Shown here piece after piece: positions 2,852 through 37,043 of a DNA stretch of 64,000 bases. Position 1 is the stretch's first letter. The number at the start of each line of letters is the position of its first letter. The DNA is taken from contig OZ024740.1 in assembly GCA_964016885.1 (NCBI GenBank), positions 175,646,001 to 175,710,000 of the forward strand, read 5' to 3'. The stretch comes from Eledone cirrhosa (Eukaryota). The notes under the pieces were generated by a model. The model saw only the letters and a list, made by a program, of their open reading frames with translations, had not been told where the DNA came from and did no database searches. Made by a program: the position numbers and the translations under genes.

Positions 2852-3219
2852 CGTGTGTGTGTGTGTGTACGTATGCACACTTACATTTATGTATCAGCTG
2901 TGCTAGGGCGAGAAATGAAATTCTAATTTTATTTTTAGTTTCCGGCACGGTCAGCCGTAACTCGCTCGGTATGCAAATGAGGCTACTCAACCGATGTGCA
3001 CTTAAGAAAATACTATATATTTTCAACCGTTCAACAGACTGGCAGAGGTATGCAGTCATGGTGAAGGGTAGTGACCCAAAAACATGTTGATTGTTCCTCA
3101 ATTCCAGTGTTCAACAAACGGATGATTTGTCCTCGGCACGGAATAGCTTTAATCCGGCCGTTTGTTTACAAACGAATCGAATATTATTATTAATGTTCGA
3201 TATAAGCGATACGTATATA

Positions 3220-3269
<50 letters not shown>

Positions 3270-3272
<3 letters not shown>

Positions 3273-4526
3273 GGGTTGGACAAAATAATGGAAACACCTA
3301 GCATCATAGCATCGTAATTTTGAAATATCTATAAAACCGTCAAAAGCTTGTTTATTTTTATGTTTTTTTTTATTTATTATTAGTGTTGCTTAATATGTTT
3401 TGCTAAAATTGCTGTTTCTTTTCAGATATCATCAGAAAAAGGTAATTAAAATTCATTAAAATGACAGATCCATCGGACTTTCAAAGAGGTCAAATTGTTG
3501 GGGCTCGTATGGCAGGCGCTAGCGTAACGAAAACAGCCGAAATGTTTGGTGTATCACGAAGTACTGTCTCAAAAGTAATGACAGCCTTTGAGAAAGAGGG
3601 AAAAACCTCTTCGTCGAAACAAAACTCCGGAAGAAAACCAAAATTCCAGATAGGGACCGTTGGACTCTTACGCGAATTGTTAGAAAGGATCACAAAAGTA
3701 CAGCTCCCAAAATTACTGCAGAGATTAATGACCACCTCGAGAACCCAGTTTCCACAAAAACTGATCGCCGGATTTCACGGGAGGGCTGCAATCAGAAAAC
3801 CACTACTTTCAAAAATAAATGTTGCAAAGCGTTTAAAGTGGAGTAAAAACCTACAGAATTGGTCCCTAGAGCAGTGGAAGAATGTTATTTTCTCGGACGA
3901 GTCATCATTTACCTTATTTCCGACCACCGGCCGAGTATACGAGTGGAGTCAGCCAAAAGAAGCATTTAACCCAGACTGCCTTATTCTAACTGTTAAACAT
4001 GGAGGAGGATCTGTGATAATCTGGGGGGGGGTGGGGGGGGCTATATCTTGGAAATCCGCCGACCCAATGGTTTCCCTTCATGGCAGAATTAATAGTCAGG
4101 ACTATTTAAGCATTTTATCTGATCAAATTCATCCTATGGTTGCGGAACTGTTTCCGCAGGGAAACGCAATCTTTCAGGATGATAATGCACCAATTCACAC
4201 AGCTAAAGTTGTTACTGAATGGCACGAGGAACATTCTAGTGAAGTTGAACATCTTATCTGGCCCCACAGTCCCCAGATCTCAATATTATTGAACATTTAT
4301 GGTGCATTTAAAAAAAACAAGTAAGGAGTCCTCCACCATCATCACTACAAGAACTGGAGACTGTTTTAGCTGAACAATGGACAAAAATTCCTTTGGAAAC
4401 AATTCAAACTTTGTACGAGTCGATACCTCGTAGAATTCAAGCTGTAATTACTGCCAAAGGCGGTCCTACCCTATATTAAAATTAATTTTTTGAAATTTTA
4501 AGGTGTTTCCATTTTTTGTCCAACCC

Positions 4527-11046: not shown

Positions 11047-11108
11047 CTCTGATGAAGGACTAGCGTCCGAAACGTTAAGACCCTCTTCCTGCTATATCAA
11101 GCGTTAAC
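11047..11108 (+). ncRNA. Minimal hammerhead ribozyme module (copy 1)
   Basis: CTGATGA-aggactagcgtcc-GAAA-cgtt-aaga; the module is nearly identical to 31561-31625. Confidence 0.75.
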
Positions 11109-21677: not shown

Positions 21678-24427
21678 TTACCTTCCAAAAATCCCGCGGA
21701 AGGTTTTCGAGGTTCTATGTTGGCAGTTGCTGAAAAAATCTGCTCTCCTATTAATTAATAGGGGCCGCCTCTAATAATATTAAAAGTTTCAGCTATACAT
21801 AAATTGCAGACGCCAGTGCTGTCGTTATAAGGTTGGGCTGAGCAAACTATGGACCAGGATAAGGAGTGCTCTATATTCTGATGTTTAAGCTTCCAGACTA
21901 ATTCGGAAAGTGCTGTGCTATTTTTTTAAATCTAATCTATTAAAGGTATGGCGGTGATTATACCATCTCTCCTTAAATTCCGTGCCAGTTGCCCCAACAT
22001 ACCTAAAGGTTCTATCAGTAGTGGAAACCTTACAGTCGTAGACTATGTTTTTGGTAAGACATTTCTCATCCAATGGGCAAGTGGCCGTGCTTCTGCAGTT
22101 ACATTTTTTGCTATCGACCTGGGTAATTCCAGATGGACCACGGTACCTTTGGGTCGGGTCTCAATTCCTGTCTGCTCTATGGCTAAATTCCCTCGGGTTG
22201 GAGAGACCCGACTCGCCTCACGTGTATGAGTCAGTTCCTCAATAGAGCTGCCATTGTTCCTGCCATGCCTAATTCCCTCATTGGCTGTCCTAAGTCTACT
22301 ATAATTCATCTTAGCTATATTCTGAGCTATGTTACTAGTTGTGGAGTAGGACAGCTTGATGGTTTTTGTATTGAATATTTTATAATATCTGTGCGATCTA
22401 GGGAAGCATTTGTCTTAGGCCCTAAAGAAAAGCTTAGCTATACTAGTGGTCAGGCCAGTGGAGTAAGGGGAATTATACCACAGGACTTTTCTGGTCCGAT
22501 GCCTCTTGTTCTTACTAACTATATTAGAATTACCTGTCTCCCTAGTAGTAACTGGAAATTGCCTGTGGGTCGATGGTGTCCTGGGGTGTCACGATTGTGT
22601 TCGGAATCGTCCCAAGTCTCCAGGGCGGTGGACCCCCCTTGCAGCCATTGGGACCACCCTCGATAGCTGGGGTTTTATCCACTATGCGTTTGCTACACCT
22701 GTCTCTATTCCCCCTACTCGACCCTCGTTCCATACTGCGTTCAACGGTAGTTTTATCGGTTCCACAATTAAGGTTACCATTAGAGTTCCCCTGTTGTTAC
22801 GTTGCTCATATCCCGTGTTAGTACCTGGGTGGTTGTTTCTATTGGTACCAACAGCATTGCGACTAGGCGGCAATACAACATGAAGTCTATATAAATCCTC
22901 CCTCGTATCACGCCTGCTGTTAACTAGAGTGTCACTATTTAGGCCTAAGCTATCGCACGCAATGTTGCTTCTACTATTTAATGGACGTTTGAATGAGATT
23001 CCCTCGCTATGCCCCGCGCGTTCCAGGGCGCTATTATAGTAATTCGAGATCTTATTAAAGGTATCTTCATTGGAAGATAGTCCTGAAATTCTACTAGAGA
23101 CGTTTTTTAGTAATACCGTTAGTGACTATTCTAGGGTGGTTCGATTTTGAGTTGACATAGTTTAGATTCCCGTTGGGTTTGTGGTAGGGTTGGAAGAGTA
23201 CTGAATTGAGGTTAAGTGTAACATCTAGAAAATTAACTATCTTTAAGTTCTCTTCATATACTATACTTAGGTCTATGTTCTTGAAGAATTTGCTAAGTTT
23301 TTTCCTCACCCTCTCTGCCATACTATTATTATGGAACGACACAGTAAACAAAACGTCGTCACGGTAAGCGCCGCCTCCCAAGTGGGGCATTTCCACTCCG
23401 AGACAGTCAAGGAGGTAAAGGCCCACCAGATCCGTCACCTGGGCCGAGTCCGTGGATCCCATGGTGATGTCGAAATAGCCTGGCCAATCCTTCCTGGTCC
23501 ACAGGTCACCGTTGAATTCAATTAAGGTTTTCCTAGCTAGGAGAATAATGTTAATTTCTTCGGATGTAAGGTCGGTGTGCAAGCTAGCAAATTTAAGGGC
23601 CCTACCTAGAAGAGTTGGAGAGAGTGAAGAGTAGTAATTAGAGATATCGAACTGTATAATCTTAGTGCTATTCTTAATCTGCGATTTCTCAAACCAGTTA
23701 ATTACCTCACTAGTTCCTGACCACAATCTGTGCTTCGATCTCCTAACTAGAGTGGGGATTATTTTATCAAGGATGTTTTTACTTACGATTCCTATGTCCG
23801 ACTTCGAAGGGGCTATCAGCCTGACAGGTCTTGATGATTGAAAGTCCAATTTGTGGTCTTTCACCAAAATCCTCGGAGTTCTAGGATGGAAGGGTTCGGT
23901 TTTATCCTCAACACCCAGTTTAGTCATGACACTATTGGCCTCCGTGTTAATTAAATCCAAGTTGGCTCGTGTAGTTTTTCTGTAGCTTTTCCTAAGTTCT
24001 CTAGTTATCAAATCGTCATAAGTTACTCCATCCATATCGACAGGTTGTTAGTCTTGTCTGCGTGCACCAAAATGCCGGTCGAGTTCTTTAATTTTACTAG
24101 ATCACCATTCAGTCGTCTTAGGTAGCTTTTTCTCCTGAGTGGGTTTTTCCTAAACTTAAGGTTGGACAATATGTTAGACATTTCAGTCTCGAATTCTTCC
24201 AAGTATTTATTGTGTGGTGGATTTCTTCTGGATTTGAATATTTCCTCGATGCCACGCGTTCCCTCCCTGGGGTGGTTTGTTGGTGTTCCTCTGTCGAAGT
24301 GGAAGGCCTTCCAACGCATTCTACGGACAAAGGAATCCGATTTACCTATGACCAACCTTGTGAATTCCTTTATGTTGGGCAAAGGGATGTCCTTAAGTGA
24401 AGAGTTCACCGAGAATTTCTCCATCAT
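21678..24427 (-). pseudogene. PLE polyprotein (RT + GIY-YIG), several frameshifts and stops
   Basis: Motifs in order: SLKDIPLP...RRMRWKA, HADKTNN, KDHK, RLIAPSKSDIG, QFDISNYY, TMGSTDSA, YRDD, FLDVTLNL, WYNSPY, CNCR..CPL..C, IVY..RYVG, CNLC, CQH. Confidence 0.92.
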
Positions 24428-24894
24428 ATTCCTTGCTTAACAGCATTAAGTGCTCAACAAAATGAGGAGCTTTAAGTTGTTATATAGTAAGGTGCATTAT
24501 TGGTTGTGTAAAATGGTCCAATAACTTTATGTTAGCAATATTAAGTTCTCCACGCTTTTGTATATCTCCAATTCCATTCAAGGGAACAGCTAGATGATGT
24601 AAAACGGAGTATAAGTATCAAAATGAAAATCCGAAGGCAAGGTAAAATTTCAATCATTTAACACATGTTTCAATAAGAGATAGATCGAGTGTGAAGCCAT
24701 GATCGATTATCACTGATCTCATCAGGTGAAAATAAATTGTCTTCAAATTCCTGATATGAGTGAGAAAAATAACGATGTTCTCTCACAGAATTCATTCCCA
24801 CATTGCCAAAACAAACTCACTGTTTGGTTTAGGGCGGTTTTCGCTTCTGTATCTTTTATATCGCCATAATTAATTTATCTGGCAATCAATGTTT

Positions 24895-24990
24895 GATGAA
24901 ACAGTTCTAGTCCTGTAGAAGCCATTTCTCTCTGTATCTATATATATTGAGTATGTGTTGGTTGTTTACCGACACCTCAGTATACAGGTA
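24895..24990 (+). repeat. Fragment of HHR-bearing PLE 3'-end family (also at 37167-37348, 57157-57200 and 61025-61152)
   Basis: Shared tGAAAcagttctaGTCctgtagaa in all copies; tattgagta downstream in the three longer ones. Confidence 0.65.
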
Positions 24991-25094
24991 GGAGCACTAA
25001 ACGAAGTGCGCAGGATGGTTTGTTCACTCCGGAGTAATGTAAAATAATAAGTGTGAGTCAAACATGTTAAATTTGGCTTCGTTTATTCCAATTC

Positions 25095-25146
25095 AATATA
25101 TATTTCAGCGACAGCTATTATTGGCTATGACCTCATCAGACAGTAA
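25095..25146 (-). ncRNA. Partial hammerhead of the same family as 784-839
   Basis: actgt-CTGATGA-ggtcatagccaataatagctgtcgct-GAAA-tatata; the 3' strand of stem I is missing. Confidence 0.6.
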
Positions 25147-25931
25147 GAATTTAGGCAGAAAAACAGGAAACCATGATGTTGTAATGGTTCTACCCTTTTA
25201 ATTCATCGATATGTCCAGCTCCTGGGTGTGTTATTAGTCCCCAAAGCAACTGGAATCATATGGGCAAGAATAAACGGGGGTACATAGAAATAGTCGGGCT
25301 GGACACCCAATCACGCGGTTAAACCACTGGGAGTGAAGGACTCCTAGCCTTTGTCAGGGCATTCTTCTAGGAGAAGGCAACTCAGGAAACTGGGATAACT
25401 CCGATATAAAACCTGCGGCTCAGTAGTTACCGATGATGTTGATCTTTTCTTCTTTTCGGGTTATAGCTACTGTCGCTCAGAGAGTGGGATTGGCTCCGTG
25501 CACAGTCTTTCCTGGTTCAATGGCAAGTTACTTGTATCTCTGTGTGTATTAATTACATGTAGGGACACATACCTTTATTATTATTCTCCCCAATGGTAGA
25601 GAAACCTTTGGTCATTTGAACGGCTGTTATTTTTAGCAGCACGGGATTGACCTGTCCACCTTGCTTTGTCATTGCACACGGTCCATAAGGAAATTGTTTC
25701 ATCATTCATTCACTCTAATTCTGAGGCAGTTTTGTCTGGCGCCAGTTTGTAATTTGAACTCGGGAAACTTATATTCTTCGAGAGAGAAAAGCCACTTCAA
25801 TGGAAATCCGCTTGGATTATCTATTAGTTTGGGATCTGAAACCGCGGTAAGGGCACATATAGTAAGTACAGTGAATTTTTTGGAATTTAATTATTATTTT
25901 TAAAGATATTTTCTGTGTTTACACTCCCTTG

Positions 25932-26463: not shown

Positions 26464-26842
26464 AAACCATTTGTTAAATTTCAGTGGGTATTATCTGTGT
26501 GTTACTTGTTTGATAAATCTTACGAGGCAGTCATATGTGGTTGTCATTTGGAGGGTGTTGTTTTGACTGCCATCTTTGTAATGTTTATCATTTCCTTGGG
26601 GATATACCTATAAATCTAGTGATTGTGCTCTGGAATGGCCAGCAAGCTATAGGAATCAGTAAACATCTTAGAGATTACGGATCTAGGTTGTGTACCTTAC
26701 ACATCTTTAGAAACTACATTGTCCAATAGATCCTTTCTCGGTTATCAATGTCTTCACGGTTGATTTTTAAGAAAGGGATGGGTGGCGTAATGCGCTGGTG
26801 TACAAGTAACATTCTTATATTGTGGACATAGAGCCGATGTTC

Positions 26843-27555
26843 ATAATAATTCTTTCTACTTTAGGCACAAGGCCAGCAATTTGGAGGTCAGGGAAAGTTG
26901 ATTAAATCGATCCCAGTACATTACTGGTGCTTTATTTATCGACCCTGCAAAGATGAAAAGCAAAGCTAACCTCGGCGGAATTTAAATTCAGAACGTAAAG
27001 AGCCATAACTCTATGCTGCAAAGCATAGTGTCTAAGACTCTACCAATACTGTCAATCCACTGCCCTTACTGCCAATGCCTTGCCGATATTCATAATAATG
27101 GTTTCTTATATAGGCACAAGGCCAGAAATTTTGGGGGGAGGGGAAAGTTGATTAAATCTACCCCAGTGCGTGACTGGTACTTTATTTTATCGACCCCGTA
27201 AGGATGAAAGGCAAAGTTAACCTCGGCGGAATTTGAACTCAGAACGTAAAGGACCATAACTCTATGCTGCAAAGCATAGTGTCTGAGACCCTACCAATGC
27301 TGCCAATCCACTGTCCTTACTGCTAATTCACCGCCTTACTACCAATCTCTTGCCGATATTCATAATAATTGTTTCTACATTTGGCACAAGGCCAGCAAAT
27401 TACCTAGTACATTACTGGTACTTTATTTTATCGAGCCCGTAAGGATGAAAGGCAAAGTTAACCTTGGCGGGATTTGAATTCAGAATGGCAAGGGCCGTAA
27501 CTCTATGCGTCAAAACATAGCGTCCGACCCTCTACCGATACTGCCAATCCACCGC
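26843..27555 (-). mobile_element. Three tandem tRNA-derived SINE copies (Meta-domain-like core)
   Basis: Each copy has B-box gagttcaaat (or variant), core ttgcctttcatccttacggggtcgataaaataaagtaccag and a (tat)n tail; period ~260 bp. Confidence 0.8.
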
Positions 27556-28082
27556 GCGAGAAGATAATATGTCAAAAGACAAAGTGACGTAATATCAAAA
27601 TAATATCAAATCAATGTAACAGACGATAGCTGTCCTGTTTGTTTTAATGCTTTCGCATAATGATAGATGAGATGGCAGAGATAGGTAGATAAGACCAATG
27701 TTTATATCATAATACATTCTTCGCAACTAGATGCATTAATAACTAATGGGTAGGAATGTTACTAAGGACATTTAAAGGGTATTCAAACTATTGCGACTGA
27801 TCTCTCTTCTGTTCACGATGATACTCCATATCAAAAGAAGGCACTTGATCCCCTCTGTTACACACACAATGCTGGCTAAAATCTATAGATATACTCCATA
27901 GTACATGGCAATTGAACAAATGACCGCTCACGCTTCCTGCAATAATAAATTATTCTCATTCCCCGAGGGTCTCTTGAATGGGTGAGTGACTTGAGTTTCA
28001 GTTATATAGTTATATTAGAACATACACGCGTACACGAGAGTGGTGGATGTCTGGCAATTTGGACGATGACTGATTTAGTAAA

Positions 28083-28350: not shown

Positions 28351-29069
28351 AACCTCACCCTTTTACCCCACACACAGGCACACGAAACAAACACGCATAT
28401 GCGCATGAGCTAAGAAAGAGACGTTTAGGTATACTCGAAATAACAACCAAATGTTTCCCAAACTACAAACTACTTTCGTCTTAAAGACGAAATGAAGCAA
28501 TCGATAACAAAAGAAAAAAACATGTAGAGAATATAAATTTACCCAAAATACGAAATATAGAATAAATTGATTATGATGGTTTTATTCTACTATTATCACA
28601 AAATATATTCCTTAATTGTTGATACGTTAATTGGACCGTAAGAAGTCTGATCAACAAATAAGTTTATTTATAATATGAAATGGCTTCAATATCGGCGTGA
28701 AGAATGCTATAAGTAAAAACGGGGAAATGGTATAAAAGACAGAAATGAAACCAGCATTCTACAGAAACAATGTATGTATATATGTATATATATATATGGC
28801 AAAGAATGAAACGAAATTTCATTTCTCACTCTTAGTACGGCTGATACTTAAATATAAGTATGTATACGTACATACATATATGTATACAGACGTACAGTAG
28901 TATGTATATATATACATACATGCACACACACATATATATATATATGTACGTATGGGTTTACAGAAAATTTATTATAATGCTCGGTTTGTTTGTAAACAAA
29001 CAGCCCGAGTTACGCCGTACAGTGTTCGGCAACTATCGTCGCCCTTTTGTTCAACACTGACACAGGAAC

Positions 29070-29107
29070 ATGTACTAGTTTCAAGCTTATTAGCTATCGT
29101 CAGCATC
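29070..29107 (-). ncRNA. Minimal type I hammerhead (inverted copy)
   Basis: gatg-CTGACGA-tagctaataagctt-GAAA-cta-GTA-cat on the minus strand. Confidence 0.85.
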
Positions 29108-29196
29108 GTATAACTTCCTGTCAGATGATTGAACGTTTGAAAGTATATACTTTCCTTATGGATATTAACGTTCAATCATCAGACAGGAAGGAATAC

Positions 29197-29235
29197 GATG
29201 CTGACGATAGCCAATAAGCTTGAAACTAGTACATC
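29197..29235 (+). ncRNA. Minimal type I hammerhead
   Basis: gatg-CTGACGA-tagccaataagctt-GAAA-cta-GTA-catc. Confidence 0.85.
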
Positions 29236-29537
29236 ATTCCTGTGTCAGTGTTGAACATAAAGGCGACGATGGTTGCTGAACACTGTACGGCGTAACTCGA
29301 GATGTTTGTTTACAAACAAACCGAGCATTATAATAAATGTTCGGTAAACCCATACGTACATATATATATGTGTGCATGTATATATATACATACTACTGTA
29401 CGTCTGTATACATGTATGTATATACGTATACATACTTACATTTAAGTATCAGCCGTACTAAGAGTGAGAAATGAAATTTCGTTTCATTCTTTTCCATTTA
29501 TCGTTTTCGGTACGCCCGGCCGACTAACTCACTCGAT

Positions 29538-29584
29538 ATGCAAATTAGGCTGCTCAGCCATTAATATGCATAAGGAAATATATA
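29538..29584 (+). promoter_or_regulatory. Octamer (ATGCAAAT) + TATA module upstream of the HHR
   Basis: ATGCAAAT at 29538 and TATATA at 29579. The same spacing occurs at 2971/3014 and, on the minus strand, 32598/32555. Confidence 0.55.
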
Positions 29585-29619
29585 CTTTCAAACGTTCAAT
29601 CATCTGACAGGTAGGTATA

Positions 29620-29660
29620 CGATGCTGACGATAGCTAATAAGCTTGAAACTAGTACATCG
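29620..29660 (+). ncRNA. Minimal type I hammerhead
   Basis: cgatg-CTGACGA-tagctaataagctt-GAAA-cta-GTA-catcg; stem III is the palindrome ACTAGT. Confidence 0.9.
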
Positions 29661-29870
29661 TTCCTGTGTCGGTGTTGAACAAAAAGGCGACGATGGTTGC
29701 CGAACACACTGTACGGCGTAATTCGGGTTATTTGTTTACAAACAAACCGAGCATTATAATAAATGTTCGGTAAAGCGATACGTACATATATATATATATG
29801 TGTGCATGTATGTATATATATACATACAACTGTACGTCTGTATACATATATGTATGTACGTATACATACT

Positions 29871-29925
<55 letters not shown>

Positions 29926-30032
29926 TATTTTCCGTTGTATTGTAATATAAATATTACACACAGTAGATTGACAGCTCACGTAGAGTTTGCTCGACGGTTC
30001 CAGTTGTAGTTCCAAAAGTACTCCGGAGAAAA

Positions 30033-30213
30033 ATAGAAAGATTTGAATGGATACAGTTTAGTTGAAAGGAATTTATTGACACGTGTTTCTATAACAGTTA
30101 CATAACCTGAAAACAGCTGCTGTAGATAGCAGCTGTTTTCAGGTTATGTAACTGTTATAGAAACACGTGTCAATAAATTCCTTTCAACTAAACTGTATCC
30201 ATTCAAATCTTTC

Positions 30214-30216
<3 letters not shown>
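30033..30216. repeat. Perfect fold-back palindrome (~89 bp arms, 6-nt loop)
   Basis: Arms carry the HHR 3' half GAAA-cacgt-GTC-aataaa; the right end abuts (TA)n. Confidence 0.9.
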
Positions 30217-32340: not shown

Positions 32341-32464
32341 ACTGATGTATAAATATTTCGTATCTCCAAAGAAATACGATTTTAGGAAGCCGTAGCTATG
32401 CAAACCAAACACCGAGGGGCTAACGCCTTCTGGTGATGTCCAGCAGAAGAAAGGGGGGACAACT

Positions 32465-32502
32465 GTCTATGCATTTCAGGCTTAACTGGCCTTCGTCAGG
32501 AC
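32465..32502 (-). ncRNA. Minimal type I hammerhead preceded by octamer + TATA
   Basis: gtc-CTGACGA-aggccagttaagcct-GAAA-tgca-TA-gac on the minus strand; ATGCAAATGAG at 32598-32588. Confidence 0.8.
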
Positions 32503-32725
32503 GGTCCCTCCCACCGCTTGCGACTGCTGGACTAGAAGAAAGGCGAGAATATATACTTTTCTCGTCTGTGTAAATGAGGTGATTAATCTCATTTGCATAT
32601 GAAACTGCATAAGTTGGCTCAACTTATAATAAAAAAGAGATAGGATTTCGCTTCAAGCATAGCTTTATACAATATGTGTAAGGATAAATATATATCAAAT
32701 ATATAAGAACTATAGAGCAAATATT

Positions 32726-32938: not shown

Positions 32939-32992
<54 letters not shown>

Positions 32993-33049
32993 TTAAGGAT
33001 ACTATTTATGGTTATGTATATAATAAAACCTTCTATGGTTATATATATT

Positions 33050-35393
33050 TAAACTCTAAACAGTGTGATAAAAACAAATCTAGCAAGGCTAATAATACTA
33101 ACAAATTTGACTCCTTCGGCTTTAAAACCTTTAGAAGCCCCCCTCATAACACACTACTAAACTCCTTTGAAAATGACCTAATAAAACTAGTTAAGAATAT
33201 TAAATACAAAAAGCACCGTAATAAAAACAACACCTTCTTAAACAAACTTAGCACCTCTATTAATGATTTCAAAACTAGTAATAAAATTATTGTACATGCG
33301 GACAAAACTAATAACATATACAGCCTAGATTATAATACTTATAGAAAGTTTATATATAATGAACTACATAAAATCTATAAGTAAACCACTATGAAAAACT
33401 TAGAAGATATTAATATGGAAGGCTATAATATAGTGTCCAAACTAGGACTCCAGAGACATACACAACCATATACCCTAACCCCCCTAGATTCTCTCTGAAG
33501 GACCATAAGGAGGACTTCATTAGCAGCCCCTCGATTAGACTCATCTGCCCTTCCAGGTCTGACATTGGCATTATCAGTAAGAAAATTTTAGATAAAATCC
33601 TCCCACAGATTAAACACAAGATATACCTTAAACAATGGGGAAATACGGGTGAAGTGATTGAATGGTTCAAAGATATCAAGAATAACAGGGATAAAAAATT
33701 TATTCAATTTGATATCAATTCTTACTACACCTCTATTTCCCCTATCCTATTAAATAAGGCACTTATCATGGCCATGGACAATAGTGACTTGACTAGACCC
33801 CAGATTGATGTCATACTTGCGGCCCGTAAAACACGAATCACCTTTGAAGACCAATTATGGACCCGCAAAGATACGCAAAACAACTTCAACATAACTATGG
33901 GGTCTAGTGACTCGGCGCAGGTCACTGATTTAGTCGGCCTATATTTACTTAACGAAATCCATAAGGACCTTCCATACCTCAACGGTGGTTTGTACCGCGA
34001 TGATGCACTTCTACTTATAGATTATAAAAAATTCAATATAGAAAGAACTAGAAAACTATTGCACAAGACATTCAAAAACTATAACCTTAGTATTACCATG
34101 GACAAAAACACTAAAAACGTCAACTTCCTGGACGCCACCCTCTACCTAGACTCTATGATATATACACCTTTCCACAAACCTAATGAAAAACTCATTTACG
34201 TAGATACCATGTTTAACCACCCTAGATCTATATTAAACTCTATCTCTAAGGGAGTATCTAATAGAATCTCTAATCTATCCTATGACGTAAACATATTTAA
34301 CAAAAACTCCCAATATTATAATCAAGCATTAGCTAGATCAGGCCATAACATAGAGATCGAGTTCCTACCTACAAAAACACATAGCTACAACATTATTTCG
34401 CACAACATGTCCATGATGAAATCTAGTAATAGGAATAGCAACCACACACACACTAATACGGAGGATGCCAACAAAGGTAACCCACACCACAGAAATTACC
34501 ATAGTACCATAAAAGGCAACAACTCACCAGACATAAAAAACAAAAATAGAAGAAGAAATAATACATTTTTCAACCCTCCTTTCAATCTAAACGTGTCTAC
34601 CAACCTACCTAGGGCTTTCTTCTCACTACTAGATAAAAACTTTCCATCCGGCCACAAGTACCATAGCCTTTTAAACAAAAACACTATTAAAATCTCCTAC
34701 TCTACTACGCCTAACATAGCATACCACATAGCTAGTAGCAATAAAAGAAAAATTAATTCTTACTTGCAACAAACTAAATCACAGCAGACGATAAACCTTC
34801 AAAATAACATTATAGCAACTAACCCTAATATCAATAGAAATAATAGTAATAGAACTAGTGTAAACAATAACGCTGGGAACGACAACCCACATAACCATAA
34901 CCCTATAGCTACCATCCAGACTTCTACACAACATAATAACCGGTAGACTAACACCCAGAATAATTGTAATTGTAGATCAAATAGAACCTGCCCTTTAGAT
35001 AAAAAATGCTTAATCAAGGATATCATATACTCATGCACAGTCACAACTACCAACTCTTCTGAAACCTATATAGGCTCTACTTCTAACTGCTTCAAAACTA
35101 GATACAATTCGCACCTCCACTCTTTCAAAAAACACAATCTAGCCAACTCCACTTCACTATCTAGCTACATACACTATCTAAAAACTAAAAATAAACCATA
35201 TACACTTAAATGGGGAGTGATAGGTAATGCGACATCGTACAAACCACCTAATAAATTTTGTAACCTCTGTCTACTAGAGACCCATACTATCATCTTCTCT
35301 AACCATAACCTCCTTAATAAAAAATCAGATGTGTTCGCGTCTTGCCAACACCGCTTCCGACACTCTTTCCAAAACTTTAAACCCAAAATATAA
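33050..35393 (+). pseudogene. Naiad-type PLE RT + GIY-YIG, 5'-truncated, disrupted
   Basis: FGFKTFRSPP, HADKTNN, KDHK, QFDINSYY, TMGSSDSA, YRDD, FFNPPF, then an in-frame TAG at 34944, then CNCRSNRTCPLDKKC, IIY...YIG, CNLC and CQH. Also a TAA at ~33382 and a frameshift before 33654. Confidence 0.92.
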
Positions 35394-36867
35394 CAATGTC
35401 AGACTTGAACCCGACACCACCTCTAGCAACTAGCATCAGGGGCACACCTTACACCTCATCTCCACACCCATTAGTCCACTTTAACCCTAATAGTACCTTT
35501 ACCCTAGAGATATCCCCATGTACTTATACTTTTGGTATATTGAATTACTTGGACTACATTACACTAATATATAATTAATGTAAACTGTAGGCACTGAATT
35601 GGTTGTGCTAACATTGTCCTGTGCATGGAGTGCCACCATAAGATAGATAGAAGATTAAGTATTGAATTTATTAAAAGGGCTATATATTCTATATGCTGAG
35701 TACAATGAATTATATACAGGTGATATATGAGTTATGAGTATATGTATGGCTTGATGGCCAGATTAGTGTCTTTATATGAGAGAATTGATCTCTGGACCAC
35801 CCTGGTGATATTTAACTTTGCCATGCATTCAGACATACAATGACTCAGAGCTTACCGGGAGTCATATATAGTAATAAGACCCTGCCAGGTTCTGCGGGTG
35901 GACTACACTTACAAAGATCATTGATTTGGAGGTCTGACTCTTCTTGTAGAATGTTCGGTTGTGGCACTCCATGATAGAAGGTAATCATACTGATATGAAC
36001 ACCTTTAGTACTTCTTAATAGACTACACTGTAATTTATAGATAAGATACTTAAATTTAGAAATTGTTTATAACGTTATATGATAGGGACTCATTTGAAAC
36101 ACCATTAATGTACTTTAGGATAATAAATTTAACTATGATAATCAGCTAGTTACCTCCCCTTACGCATTAACTCCCCTTACACATTAACTCCCCTTAGTCA
36201 CACACACTTCCGGAATATAATACAATGTCATCTCTCACAACAAAAACATCCTGATCTATGAATCAAATTAAGAAACGACAAGATATGATTTATATCATGA
36301 TTCAACAGACACCCAATGTTGTATCATTGGGGATTGAGTGATGGACATGTAAACTATAAATTGCGTTTCCTGGATTATGTGAATGGTGGTGGGTGCGAGG
36401 ACAGTGCTGCTGTTTTGCTTCTCATTTGTAATATTTTTGATATTTTTGGTGTTTCTCTACAAACGGGCTTATATATCGTACAGGTGTGTGTGGAAAATGC
36501 TTTAACAATACAGCCCCCATGATGCTATTGATTGCCTGCTTTTACTGGTTGTTTTTACATGTAACAATCTGCCGCACTATAATCCTGTATAAATAAGACA
36601 CGCGTGCATGCCACACGTGAGACTGTTTCATACACTGAATACTCTAAACTTTCCTCTTGCTTTATCTTCATAAACTGCCAATGTTTTATTTTTATTTTTA
36701 TTTTAACTTTAATTTTGTCCTTTAATATGAATGTAACCTTTGTATGTAAATTGCCATGCTATATCATTATGATGGATGTCAACCCACTGTGGGTCAATAT
36801 ATACATATGTTTTTGCATGTCTCTTGTGTTGATAAGGAGGTCAAGTATGTGAAAAATCACTAAATAG

Positions 36868-36916
36868 TTGCTCCGAAGAATCCAAACCGAGGTTTGGAGG
36901 AAACAATTGTAAGCAA
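36868..36916 (+). ncRNA. Hammerhead probably ending the 33-37 kb PLE, one core mutation
   Basis: ttgct-CCGAAGA-atccaaaccgaggtttggag-GAAA-caatt-GTA-agcaa; CTG is changed to CCG. Confidence 0.75.
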
Positions 36917-36952
36917 ATAAATGATTTAAACTGAACTTTGATTCATGTAATT

Positions 36953-37043
<91 letters not shown>

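What the first reader, a model, noticed from the sequence alone, without database searches (positions are those of the whole stretch)
28801..29875. Complete retrozyme-like insertion: 424-bp tandem with three intact minimal hammerheads and a 368-bp inverted leader
Seen: two sense HHRs 424 bp apart plus an antisense copy. All have intact CTGACGA/GAAA/GTA cores and a palindromic loopless stem III (ACTAGT). Established: such minimal HHRs cleave as dimers, and partial tandems plus inverted 5' copies are hallmarks of PLE integration. Inference: a non-autonomous parasite of the resident PLEs. The unit also contains its own TA/TG microsatellite, so it would seed microsatellites as it spreads.
Basis: partly seen in the sequence, partly recalled or inferred. 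Interest (0 to 1): 0.75.

Follow-up and report, generated by a model that had tools for sequence, protein, structure and literature searches.

The report
Promoter-carrying hammerhead retrozyme in TA repeat
This is one copy of an abundant 424-base non-coding repeat that carries a predicted self-cutting RNA motif and sits in TA repeats with the same two-ended insertion pattern as this genome's Penelope-type retrotransposons, which likely copy it; it is a known kind of element, but it also carries the upstream box of the host's U6-type genes, so it likely drives its own transcription.

Summary
In detail: hammerhead cores at +29201, +29625 (424 apart) and -29103, in a 1.7-unit tandem joined head-to-head to a 377-bp inverted arm. 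The family is dispersed (2,542 exact 34-mer matches), has no ORF running into the unit in 87 loci examined, and ends at two fixed sites 57 nt apart, usually at TA tracts, one site per side in 25 of 31 two-armed insertions. A resident Hydra-clade Penelope family follows the same rule (8 of 8), which supports Penelope-type mobilisation; the actual partner was not found. Corrections: the ribozyme is canonical type I, not 'minimal'; the element mainly targets existing TA tracts rather than seeding them; this copy is probably a dead end. Added: a TATGCAAAT[TG]AG box plus TATA, shared with host U6, U6atac and RNase MRP genes but not U1/U2, lies upstream of the ribozyme in three related families (18,133 modules genome-wide), at 4-6 bp shorter spacing. 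Cleavage, expression and polymerase are untested. This scan reported such families, the two-end rule and the U6-like box before, on other DNA of this genome. Verdict: new variant of animal non-LTR retrozymes.

The parts
28770..28797 (.). left TA/TG microsatellite flank; its last bases overlap the element's long 3' end
28792..29168 (-). inverted arm: unit positions about 391-424 then 1-333, ending at the long 3' end (carries the 57-nt tail); has TATA but not the octamer box
29068..29108 (-). hammerhead 3 (core CTGACGA from 29103, predicted cut after 29073); one helix I base deleted
29167..29168 (.). head-to-head junction of the two arms, about 2 nt shared
29169..29592 (+). full 424-nt unit (reference numbering, position 1 = 29169)
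29196..29236 (+). hammerhead 1 (core 29201, predicted cut after 29231); helix I extends over about 29170-29256
29232..29655 (+). predicted cut-to-cut monomer RNA (424 nt)
   Evidence: inferred from the two cores; folds
29352..29444 (+). internal TA/TG-rich, self-complementary segment ending at the short 3' end site (unit 276)
29445..29501 (+). 57-nt tail between the short (276) and long (333) end sites; first T4 run after the predicted start lies at its end
29537..29548 (+). TATGCAAATTAG box, same as upstream of host U6 / RNase MRP genes
29579..29584 (+). TATA box; predicted transcription start at 29609 (TATA+30)
   Evidence: start is inferred
29620..29660 (+). hammerhead 2 (core 29625, predicted cut after 29655); matches the family majority form
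29593..29878 (+). partial second unit (1-276), ending at the short 3' end
29879..29922 (.). right (TA)n flank

Best explanation
The locus is one insertion of a dispersed, non-coding 424-nt hammerhead repeat (an animal non-LTR retrozyme) that was likely pasted into an existing TA microsatellite by a Penelope-like enzyme, likely of the Hydra clade, and whose family likely transcribes itself from a U6-type upstream promoter carried inside the unit. Proposed cycle: (1, inferred) a tandem source copy is transcribed from the box+TATA, starting about 16 nt before the ribozyme core; (2, inferred) read-through of the weak T4 stop gives multi-unit RNA; (3, inferred from related elements in print) two hammerheads pair through their ACUAGU palindromes, cut, and release a 424-nt monomer that is ligated to a circle; (4, junction pattern shown, enzyme inferred) the endonuclease/RT opens a TA tract and copies from two fixed sites, unit 333 on one side and unit 276 on the other, giving two arms that join head-to-head; (5, shown as structure) copies longer than one unit put the promoter back upstream of the next ribozyme. 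This copy is likely a dead end: its only complete promoter (29537-29584) lies before a single ribozyme, and a transcript reading in from the left would fold the inverted arm onto unit 1.
For: Copy number: 2,542 exact matches to a 34-nt ribozyme word, reversed control 0; 1,782 first-look candidates. Fixed ends: 119 of 154 arms in 87 loci taken in chromosome order end at 262-277 or 326-334; 25 of 31 two-armed insertions with both ends fixed have one short and one long end; independent DNA runs show TA joined at 29439 and 29501. TA targeting: 90 of 134 outer 3' flanks and 13 of 40 outer 5' flanks against 803 of 12,000 background windows. One copy lies inside a Penelope ORF with a 9-bp duplication. 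The resident Penelope family of window 32990-36955 has RWR/RWK, DKT and CxCx5C motifs (Hydra clade per PMC8557442 section 11, read) and shows one short plus one long end (160-168-nt tail) in 8 of 8 two-armed loci where both were detected. No ORF runs into the unit: 22 of 87 loci have a Penelope protein hit nearby, none in pLTR arrangement. Ribozyme: three homologous families change all three helices in compensatory fashion and keep a stem III palindrome (ACTAGT 144/157, ATGCAT 33/36, ACATGT 11/13). Promoter: box present before 6 of 9 distinct U6 upstream regions (2 exact, 4 with one change), the top U6atac locus (1 of 6, one change) and the single RNase MRP gene, absent before 6 distinct U2 and 8 U1 regions; box and TATA are among the best-conserved segments of the unit (0.98, 0.99 against 0.93); TATA+30 is C|A in all three families; 18,133 box-TATA-core modules, control 0. 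50 of 119 fixed-end arms exceed one unit.
Against: No cleavage, expression or circle data. No autonomous Penelope element with DNA similarity to the unit was found, and the Hydra tail tested (164 nt) differs from the 57-nt tail, so the partner is unidentified. Box-to-TATA spacing is 41-43 nt against 46-48 in host Pol III genes, so the polymerase is open. A pile-up of 5' ends at the predicted start (11 of 19 ends in unit 398-28) was not seen in the second set of 58 loci (0 ends at 12-22). The T4 position is weak evidence (P 0.076 and 0.23 under shuffling). Helix II closes with U.U in 155 of 157 copies, which may lower activity; in 10.64898/2026.07.22.740005 only 1 of 9 frog retrozyme dimers cleaved in vitro. 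Multi-unit arms fit uncut read-through RNA as well as circles. Copies are about 5% from the majority sequence, so current activity is not shown.
Confidence: 0.72

Rival explanations
1. Retrozyme as described, but the box and TATA are not a working Pol III promoter: the unit is made by read-through from neighbouring transcription or by Pol II from a promoter inherited from a Penelope terminal repeat.
For: Spacing is 4-6 bp shorter than in all host Pol III genes seen; octamer plus TATA at -30 also fits Pol II promoters (own knowledge); start-site pile-up not replicated; PMC7761336 (passages) proposes read-through for animal retrozymes.
Against: The 12-nt box matches host U6/MRP genes and is absent from U1/U2; it is invariant across families about 60-70% alike; first T4 run falls at the long end in families 1 and 2.
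Confidence: 0.25
2. The copies are truncated ends (pLTRs) of an autonomous Penelope-like element rather than an independent non-coding element.
For: Same architecture as the Hydra family, whose copies are mostly 5'-truncated; searches score only the best 40 candidates or list the first 100 places, so a rare full-length master could be missed.
Against: Upstream of the ribozyme lies the same unit again, up to 12 units, never an ORF, in 60 loci with 1.5-kb flanks and 87 position-ordered loci, 60 of them with 4-kb flanks.
Confidence: 0.07
3. Copies are made from uncut linear read-through transcripts; the ribozyme serves something else (for example trimming the 5' leader) and circles play no part in spreading.
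For: 11 arms start at unit 13-22, two of them multi-unit, as full copies of primary transcripts would; only 2 of 154 arms start at the cut site, and junctions across the cut site are seamless in either model; U.U in helix II may make cutting slow.
Against: Most arms run upstream past the predicted start into the promoter; copies within a locus share more non-majority bases than copies between loci (3.1 against 1.2), as repeated copying of one template would give (also fits local amplification); circles are shown for coral, mussel and axolotl retrozymes (PMC7229834, results and discussion read).
Confidence: 0.25

Closest known systems
Animal non-LTR retrozymes (Cervera and de la Pena 2020, PMC7229834: results, discussion read; Li, Clavereau and Pollet 2026, 10.64898/2026.07.22.740005: parts 1-3 of 5 read)
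   Same: Non-coding 150-450-bp low-GC tandem unit, one type I hammerhead per unit, thousands of copies, no LTR/PBS/PPT, co-occurs with Penelope-like elements; mussel units are 350-390 bp; axolotl HHR_Amex2 also has U.U at the base of helix II and cleaves better as a dimer.
   Different: Fixed short and long 3' ends, inverted arms and TA targeting are not described in the passages read ('inverted' and 'microsatellite' occur 0 times in PMC7229834); a review says these elements seem to lack promoters and any motif pointing to the partner (PMC7761336, passages), whereas this unit carries a host U6-type box.
Hydra-clade Penelope-like elements (Craig et al. 2021, PMC8557442: passages and section 11 read)
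   Same: (TA)n targeting, partial tandems, inverted 5'-truncated copy, tail on one end only, hammerhead near the 3' end.
   Different: No ORF; tail 57 nt (paper: 30-40; resident Hydra family: 160-168); no DNA similarity to the Hydra copies examined.
Newt satellite 2 and schistosome hammerhead satellite (seen only as a passage and reference in PMC2220036; primary paper PMC308520 not held)
   Same: Hammerhead repeats with their own promoter: snRNA-type Pol II (newt), Pol III (schistosome).
   Different: Here the box matches the host's Pol III type-3 genes (U6, U6atac, MRP) and not its U1/U2 genes, and is followed by TATA.
[quoted passage not shown]
   Same: Type I core, palindromic helix III region, dimer model.
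   Different: Short helix II and long bulged helix I make this a canonical, not minimal, motif.

Membership tests
Animal non-LTR retrozyme | Tandem unit of about 150-450 bp, low GC, one type I hammerhead per unit | tested here: met
   424-nt unit, cores 424 apart; arrays to 12 units
Animal non-LTR retrozyme | Non-coding, many dispersed copies | tested here: met
   No ORF of 120 aa or more at the locus; 2,542 matches; no ORF contiguous in 87 loci
Animal non-LTR retrozyme | Self-cleavage of the transcript | not testable with these tools
   Only structure, conservation and cross-family covariation
Animal non-LTR retrozyme | Expressed as linear and circular monomers | not testable with these tools
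Canonical type I hammerhead | CUGANGA / GAAA / NUH core with helices I, II and short palindromic III | tested here: met
   66 of 86 copies keep the full core; helices
Canonical type I hammerhead | Purine-pyrimidine pair 10.1-11.1 at base of helix II | tested here: not met
   U.U in 155 of 157; same variant reported for axolotl HHR_Amex2
Canonical type I hammerhead | Match to an Rfam hammerhead model | tested here: not met
min-HHR of Penelope pLTRs | Helix II of 7-8 bp, short helix I with poorly defined loop 1, no helix III | tested here: not met
Penelope-type insertion | Partial tandem, adjacent inverted 5'-truncated copy, tail on one end | tested here: met
Penelope-type insertion | Sequence relationship to the pLTR of an autonomous element | tested here: inconclusive
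   None found in the window's elements or 50 fetched Hydra loci; only one of many families sampled
Pol III type-3 (U6-type) transcription unit | Host proximal box and TATA at -30 | tested here: met
Pol III type-3 (U6-type) transcription unit | Box-to-TATA spacing as in host genes | tested here: not met
   41-43 against 46-48 nt
Pol III type-3 (U6-type) transcription unit | Defined start and oligo-T stop | tested here: inconclusive
   C|A at TATA+30 in 3 of 3 families; 5' pile-up in one set only; T4 position P 0.076

The most novel reading that the evidence does not exclude
A superfamily of about 18,000 retrozyme units uses the hammerhead and circular permutation to inherit an external U6-type Pol III promoter, which ordinary U6/7SK-type retrocopies lose, and is integrated by Hydra-clade enzymes through priming at two fixed sites, one per target strand; the ribozyme's purpose would then be promoter inheritance.
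Probability: 0.4. Interest if true: 0.7.

Novelty: new variant of a known kind. Interest (0 to 1): 0.47.

Why it matters
How animal retrozymes are transcribed and which enzyme moves them are open points in the papers read. This family gives a named promoter candidate, a predicted start, two fixed integration sites shared in kind with a resident Hydra-clade element, and thousands of copies as a record, so both questions become directly testable. The locus itself is an ordinary, probably inert copy, and the same picture has been noted for sister families elsewhere in this genome.

Tried and rejected
Rfam: no hammerhead match; the miRNA matches at 29072-29232 only reflect the inverted junction and TA hairpins. 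Pfam names none of the six retroelement protein pieces tested; the seventh, a Tc1-like transposase, does match. Sequencing runs: no RNA holder listed. Search for a Penelope partner by DNA similarity: none in the window, 30 short and 20 long loci of the 33-kb Hydra family. L165/L251, first read as a retrozyme-Penelope hybrid end, is a retrozyme inserted in a Penelope ORF and later duplicated in inverted form. Target-site duplications: only 1 clear case (9 bp) among 42 loci listed with at least one non-repeat flank; no empty allele was examined. 5' ends at the cleavage site: 2 of 154, no enrichment. 5' pile-up at the predicted start: 11 of 19 in one set (window chosen after seeing the list), 0 in the other. 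The strong fold of the monomer (z -5.15) comes largely from the self-complementary TA/TG segment and was not used as ribozyme evidence. Alignment A2 held one row with wrong coordinates and was not used for counts. Three duplicate loci of 90 were dropped. Literature: 'hammerhead, retrozyme, octopus', 'hammerhead, cephalopod, Penelope, ribozyme' and 'retrozyme, polymerase III, U6 promoter, octamer, hammerhead' listed no paper describing this family or a U6-type promoter in retrozymes; the library lacks most subscription journals, and supplements (for example the Hydra consensus files of PMC8557442 and the bioRxiv tables) were not seen and may hold this family or its partner.

Full report
Observation. 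The window shows three hammerhead cores, at +29201, +29625 and -29103, each CTGACGA-TAGC(C/T)AATAAGCTT-GAAA-CTAG-TA. The insertion is an inverted arm (28792-29168) joined head-to-head to a sense tandem of one full 424-nt unit and a partial second one (29167-29878), between TA-rich microsatellites. In unit numbering (1 = 29169) the inverted arm runs from about 391 through 424 and 1 to 333, the sense arm from 423 through a full unit to 276.

The ribozyme. Helix I is CGAUG/CAUCG followed by a 6-nt bulge and a long extension, helix II is U.U plus AGC/GCU, helix III is the palindrome ACUAGU. By the definitions in PMC4209133 this is a canonical type I motif, not a minimal one; the U.U variant matches axolotl HHR_Amex2, which cleaves weakly alone and well as a dimer (PMC7229834). 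Rfam does not detect it. Two other repeat families in the same window (32345-32681 minus; 2858-3263 plus) align with the unit along its length and change every helix in compensatory fashion: helix I CGATG/CATCG, CCGTC/GACGG, CAGTC/GATTG; helix II AGC/GCT, GGC/GCC, GGG/CCC; helix III ACTAGT, ATGCAT, ACATGT (157, 36 and 13 motifs counted). This points to selection for a folding, dimer-compatible ribozyme in the lineage; cleavage itself is untested.

The family. The genome (3.0 Gb, animal; cephalopod-like is taken from earlier notes and recall, not tested) holds 2,542 exact copies of a 34-nt ribozyme word, reversed control 0. In 87 loci taken in chromosome order (90 fetched, 3 duplicates dropped), 119 of 154 arms end at one of two sites, about 276 or 333. 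Of 53 diverging arm pairs, 31 have both ends fixed, and 25 of these have one short and one long end, as the window copy does. Outer 3' flanks hold (TA)4 or more in 90 of 134 cases, outer 5' flanks in 13 of 40, background 803 of 12,000. Both end sites read CATTTA, and ends shift to 326 or 328 where the target is (TC)n or (CA)n, as annealing to an existing repeat would give. One copy sits in a Penelope ORF with a 9-bp duplication and no TA tail. DNA runs of other studies show the same TA junctions. So the element mainly targets microsatellites; its internal TA run reached 10 or more units in 8 of 52 internal segments, a lesser seeding effect. No locus shows an ORF running into the unit; arrays reach 12 units. 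Copies are about 5% from the majority sequence.

The likely mobiliser. The window's Penelope elements at 32990-36955 (+) and about 21700-25200 (-) carry RWR/RWK, DKT and CxCx5C, the marks of the TA-targeting Hydra clade (PMC8557442). The first family has at least 150 close copies and shows the same rule: a short end and a long end with a 160-168-nt tail, one per side in 8 of 8 two-armed loci where both were detected. It shares no DNA similarity with the unit, so the clade is inferred and the partner family is unknown.

A promoter candidate. The most invariant non-ribozyme block across the three families is TATGCAAAT[TG]AG, with TATATA 41-43 nt after the octamer start. The same box lies at about -77 before the two top dispersed U6 genes, with one change before the U6 array and the top U6atac locus, and exactly before the single RNase MRP gene, each with TATA near -30; 3 of 9 distinct U6 and 5 of 6 U6atac upstream regions lack it, and it is absent from 6 U2 and 8 U1 regions. 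TATA+30 falls on C|A in all three families (unit 17, window 29609), and the first T4 run after it lies at the long end. The box-TATA-core module occurs 18,133 times, control 0. Against: host spacing is 46-48 nt; the T4 position is not significant alone; a 5'-end pile-up at the predicted start appeared in one set (11 of 19) but not in the other. A review states that retrozymes seem to lack promoters (PMC7761336), although newt and schistosome hammerhead satellites are reported to have them (PMC2220036). I reached this reading; earlier notes of this scan report the same for other DNA of this genome, which is agreement, not independent evidence.

Mechanism. Shown: structure, copy number, two fixed ends, TA targeting, lack of ORF, ribozyme covariation, promoter-like box. 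Inferred: transcription from the box, read-through, dimer cleavage, circle formation, Hydra-type priming at 333 and 276 on opposite target strands. An upstream promoter is lost on retroposition unless more than one unit is copied; 50 of 119 fixed-end arms exceed one unit, which restores it. Whether the template is a circle or uncut read-through RNA is not settled by these data. In this copy the only full promoter precedes one ribozyme, and the inverted arm would pair with unit 1 in a read-in transcript, so it is likely inert.

Verdict. A real, ordinary copy of a non-LTR retrozyme family; the family is a new variant through its U6-type box and its two-end record of Penelope-type integration. 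Interest 0.47.

Noticed in passing
window 32345-32681 (-): Second retrozyme family (about 337-nt unit, hammerhead at -32499 with ATGCAT stem III, same box and TATA, 56-57-nt tail); 2,389 first-look candidates.
   Followed up: yes
window 2858-3263 (+): Third, older family about 70% like the unit; this copy's ribozyme is decayed, other copies keep CTGATGA...GAAACATGTT with A.A at the base of helix II; 3,436 candidates.
   Followed up: yes
window 32990-36955 (+): Hydra-clade Penelope copy with stops at 33384 and 34946, an inverted tail piece at 32990-33065 and a hammerhead-like motif with an altered core near 36872-36915; genomic relatives have open frames up to 830 aa.
   Followed up: partly
window about 21700-25200 (-): Second Hydra-clade copy with a hammerhead core at -25139 (ATATAT stem III) upstream of its ORF; a related core at +789.
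   Followed up: partly
window 29923-30216: Another high-copy two-armed insertion in the same TA tract: 89-bp perfect inverted repeat, longer tail on the left, and what looks like the 3' half of a hammerhead (GAAACACGTGTC).
   Followed up: no
window 11049 and 31565 (+); 51273 (+); 61906 (+); 37214 (-): Further hammerhead-like cores; those at 11049 and 31565 fit the true minimal type.
   Followed up: no
L251:3273-6396 (G000:C1:18.49 Mb): Retrozyme inserted antisense in a Hydra ORF linker with a 9-bp duplication; the junction was then copied in an inverted arm at 97% identity.
   Followed up: yes
L226; L055: Long arrays of the unit (12 or more and 7 units), in which many ribozyme cores share disabling changes.
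   Followed up: no
L254-L298: Host small-RNA promoters: Pol III genes (U6, U6atac, MRP) carry an octamer-like box at about -77 plus TATA; U1 and U2 carry a TCAGT word near -55 and an AT-rich stretch near -30.
   Followed up: partly
window 26833-27568; 3446-4324: Three tandem copies of a 250-bp SINE-like repeat; a Tc1/mariner-type transposase ORF.
   Followed up: no
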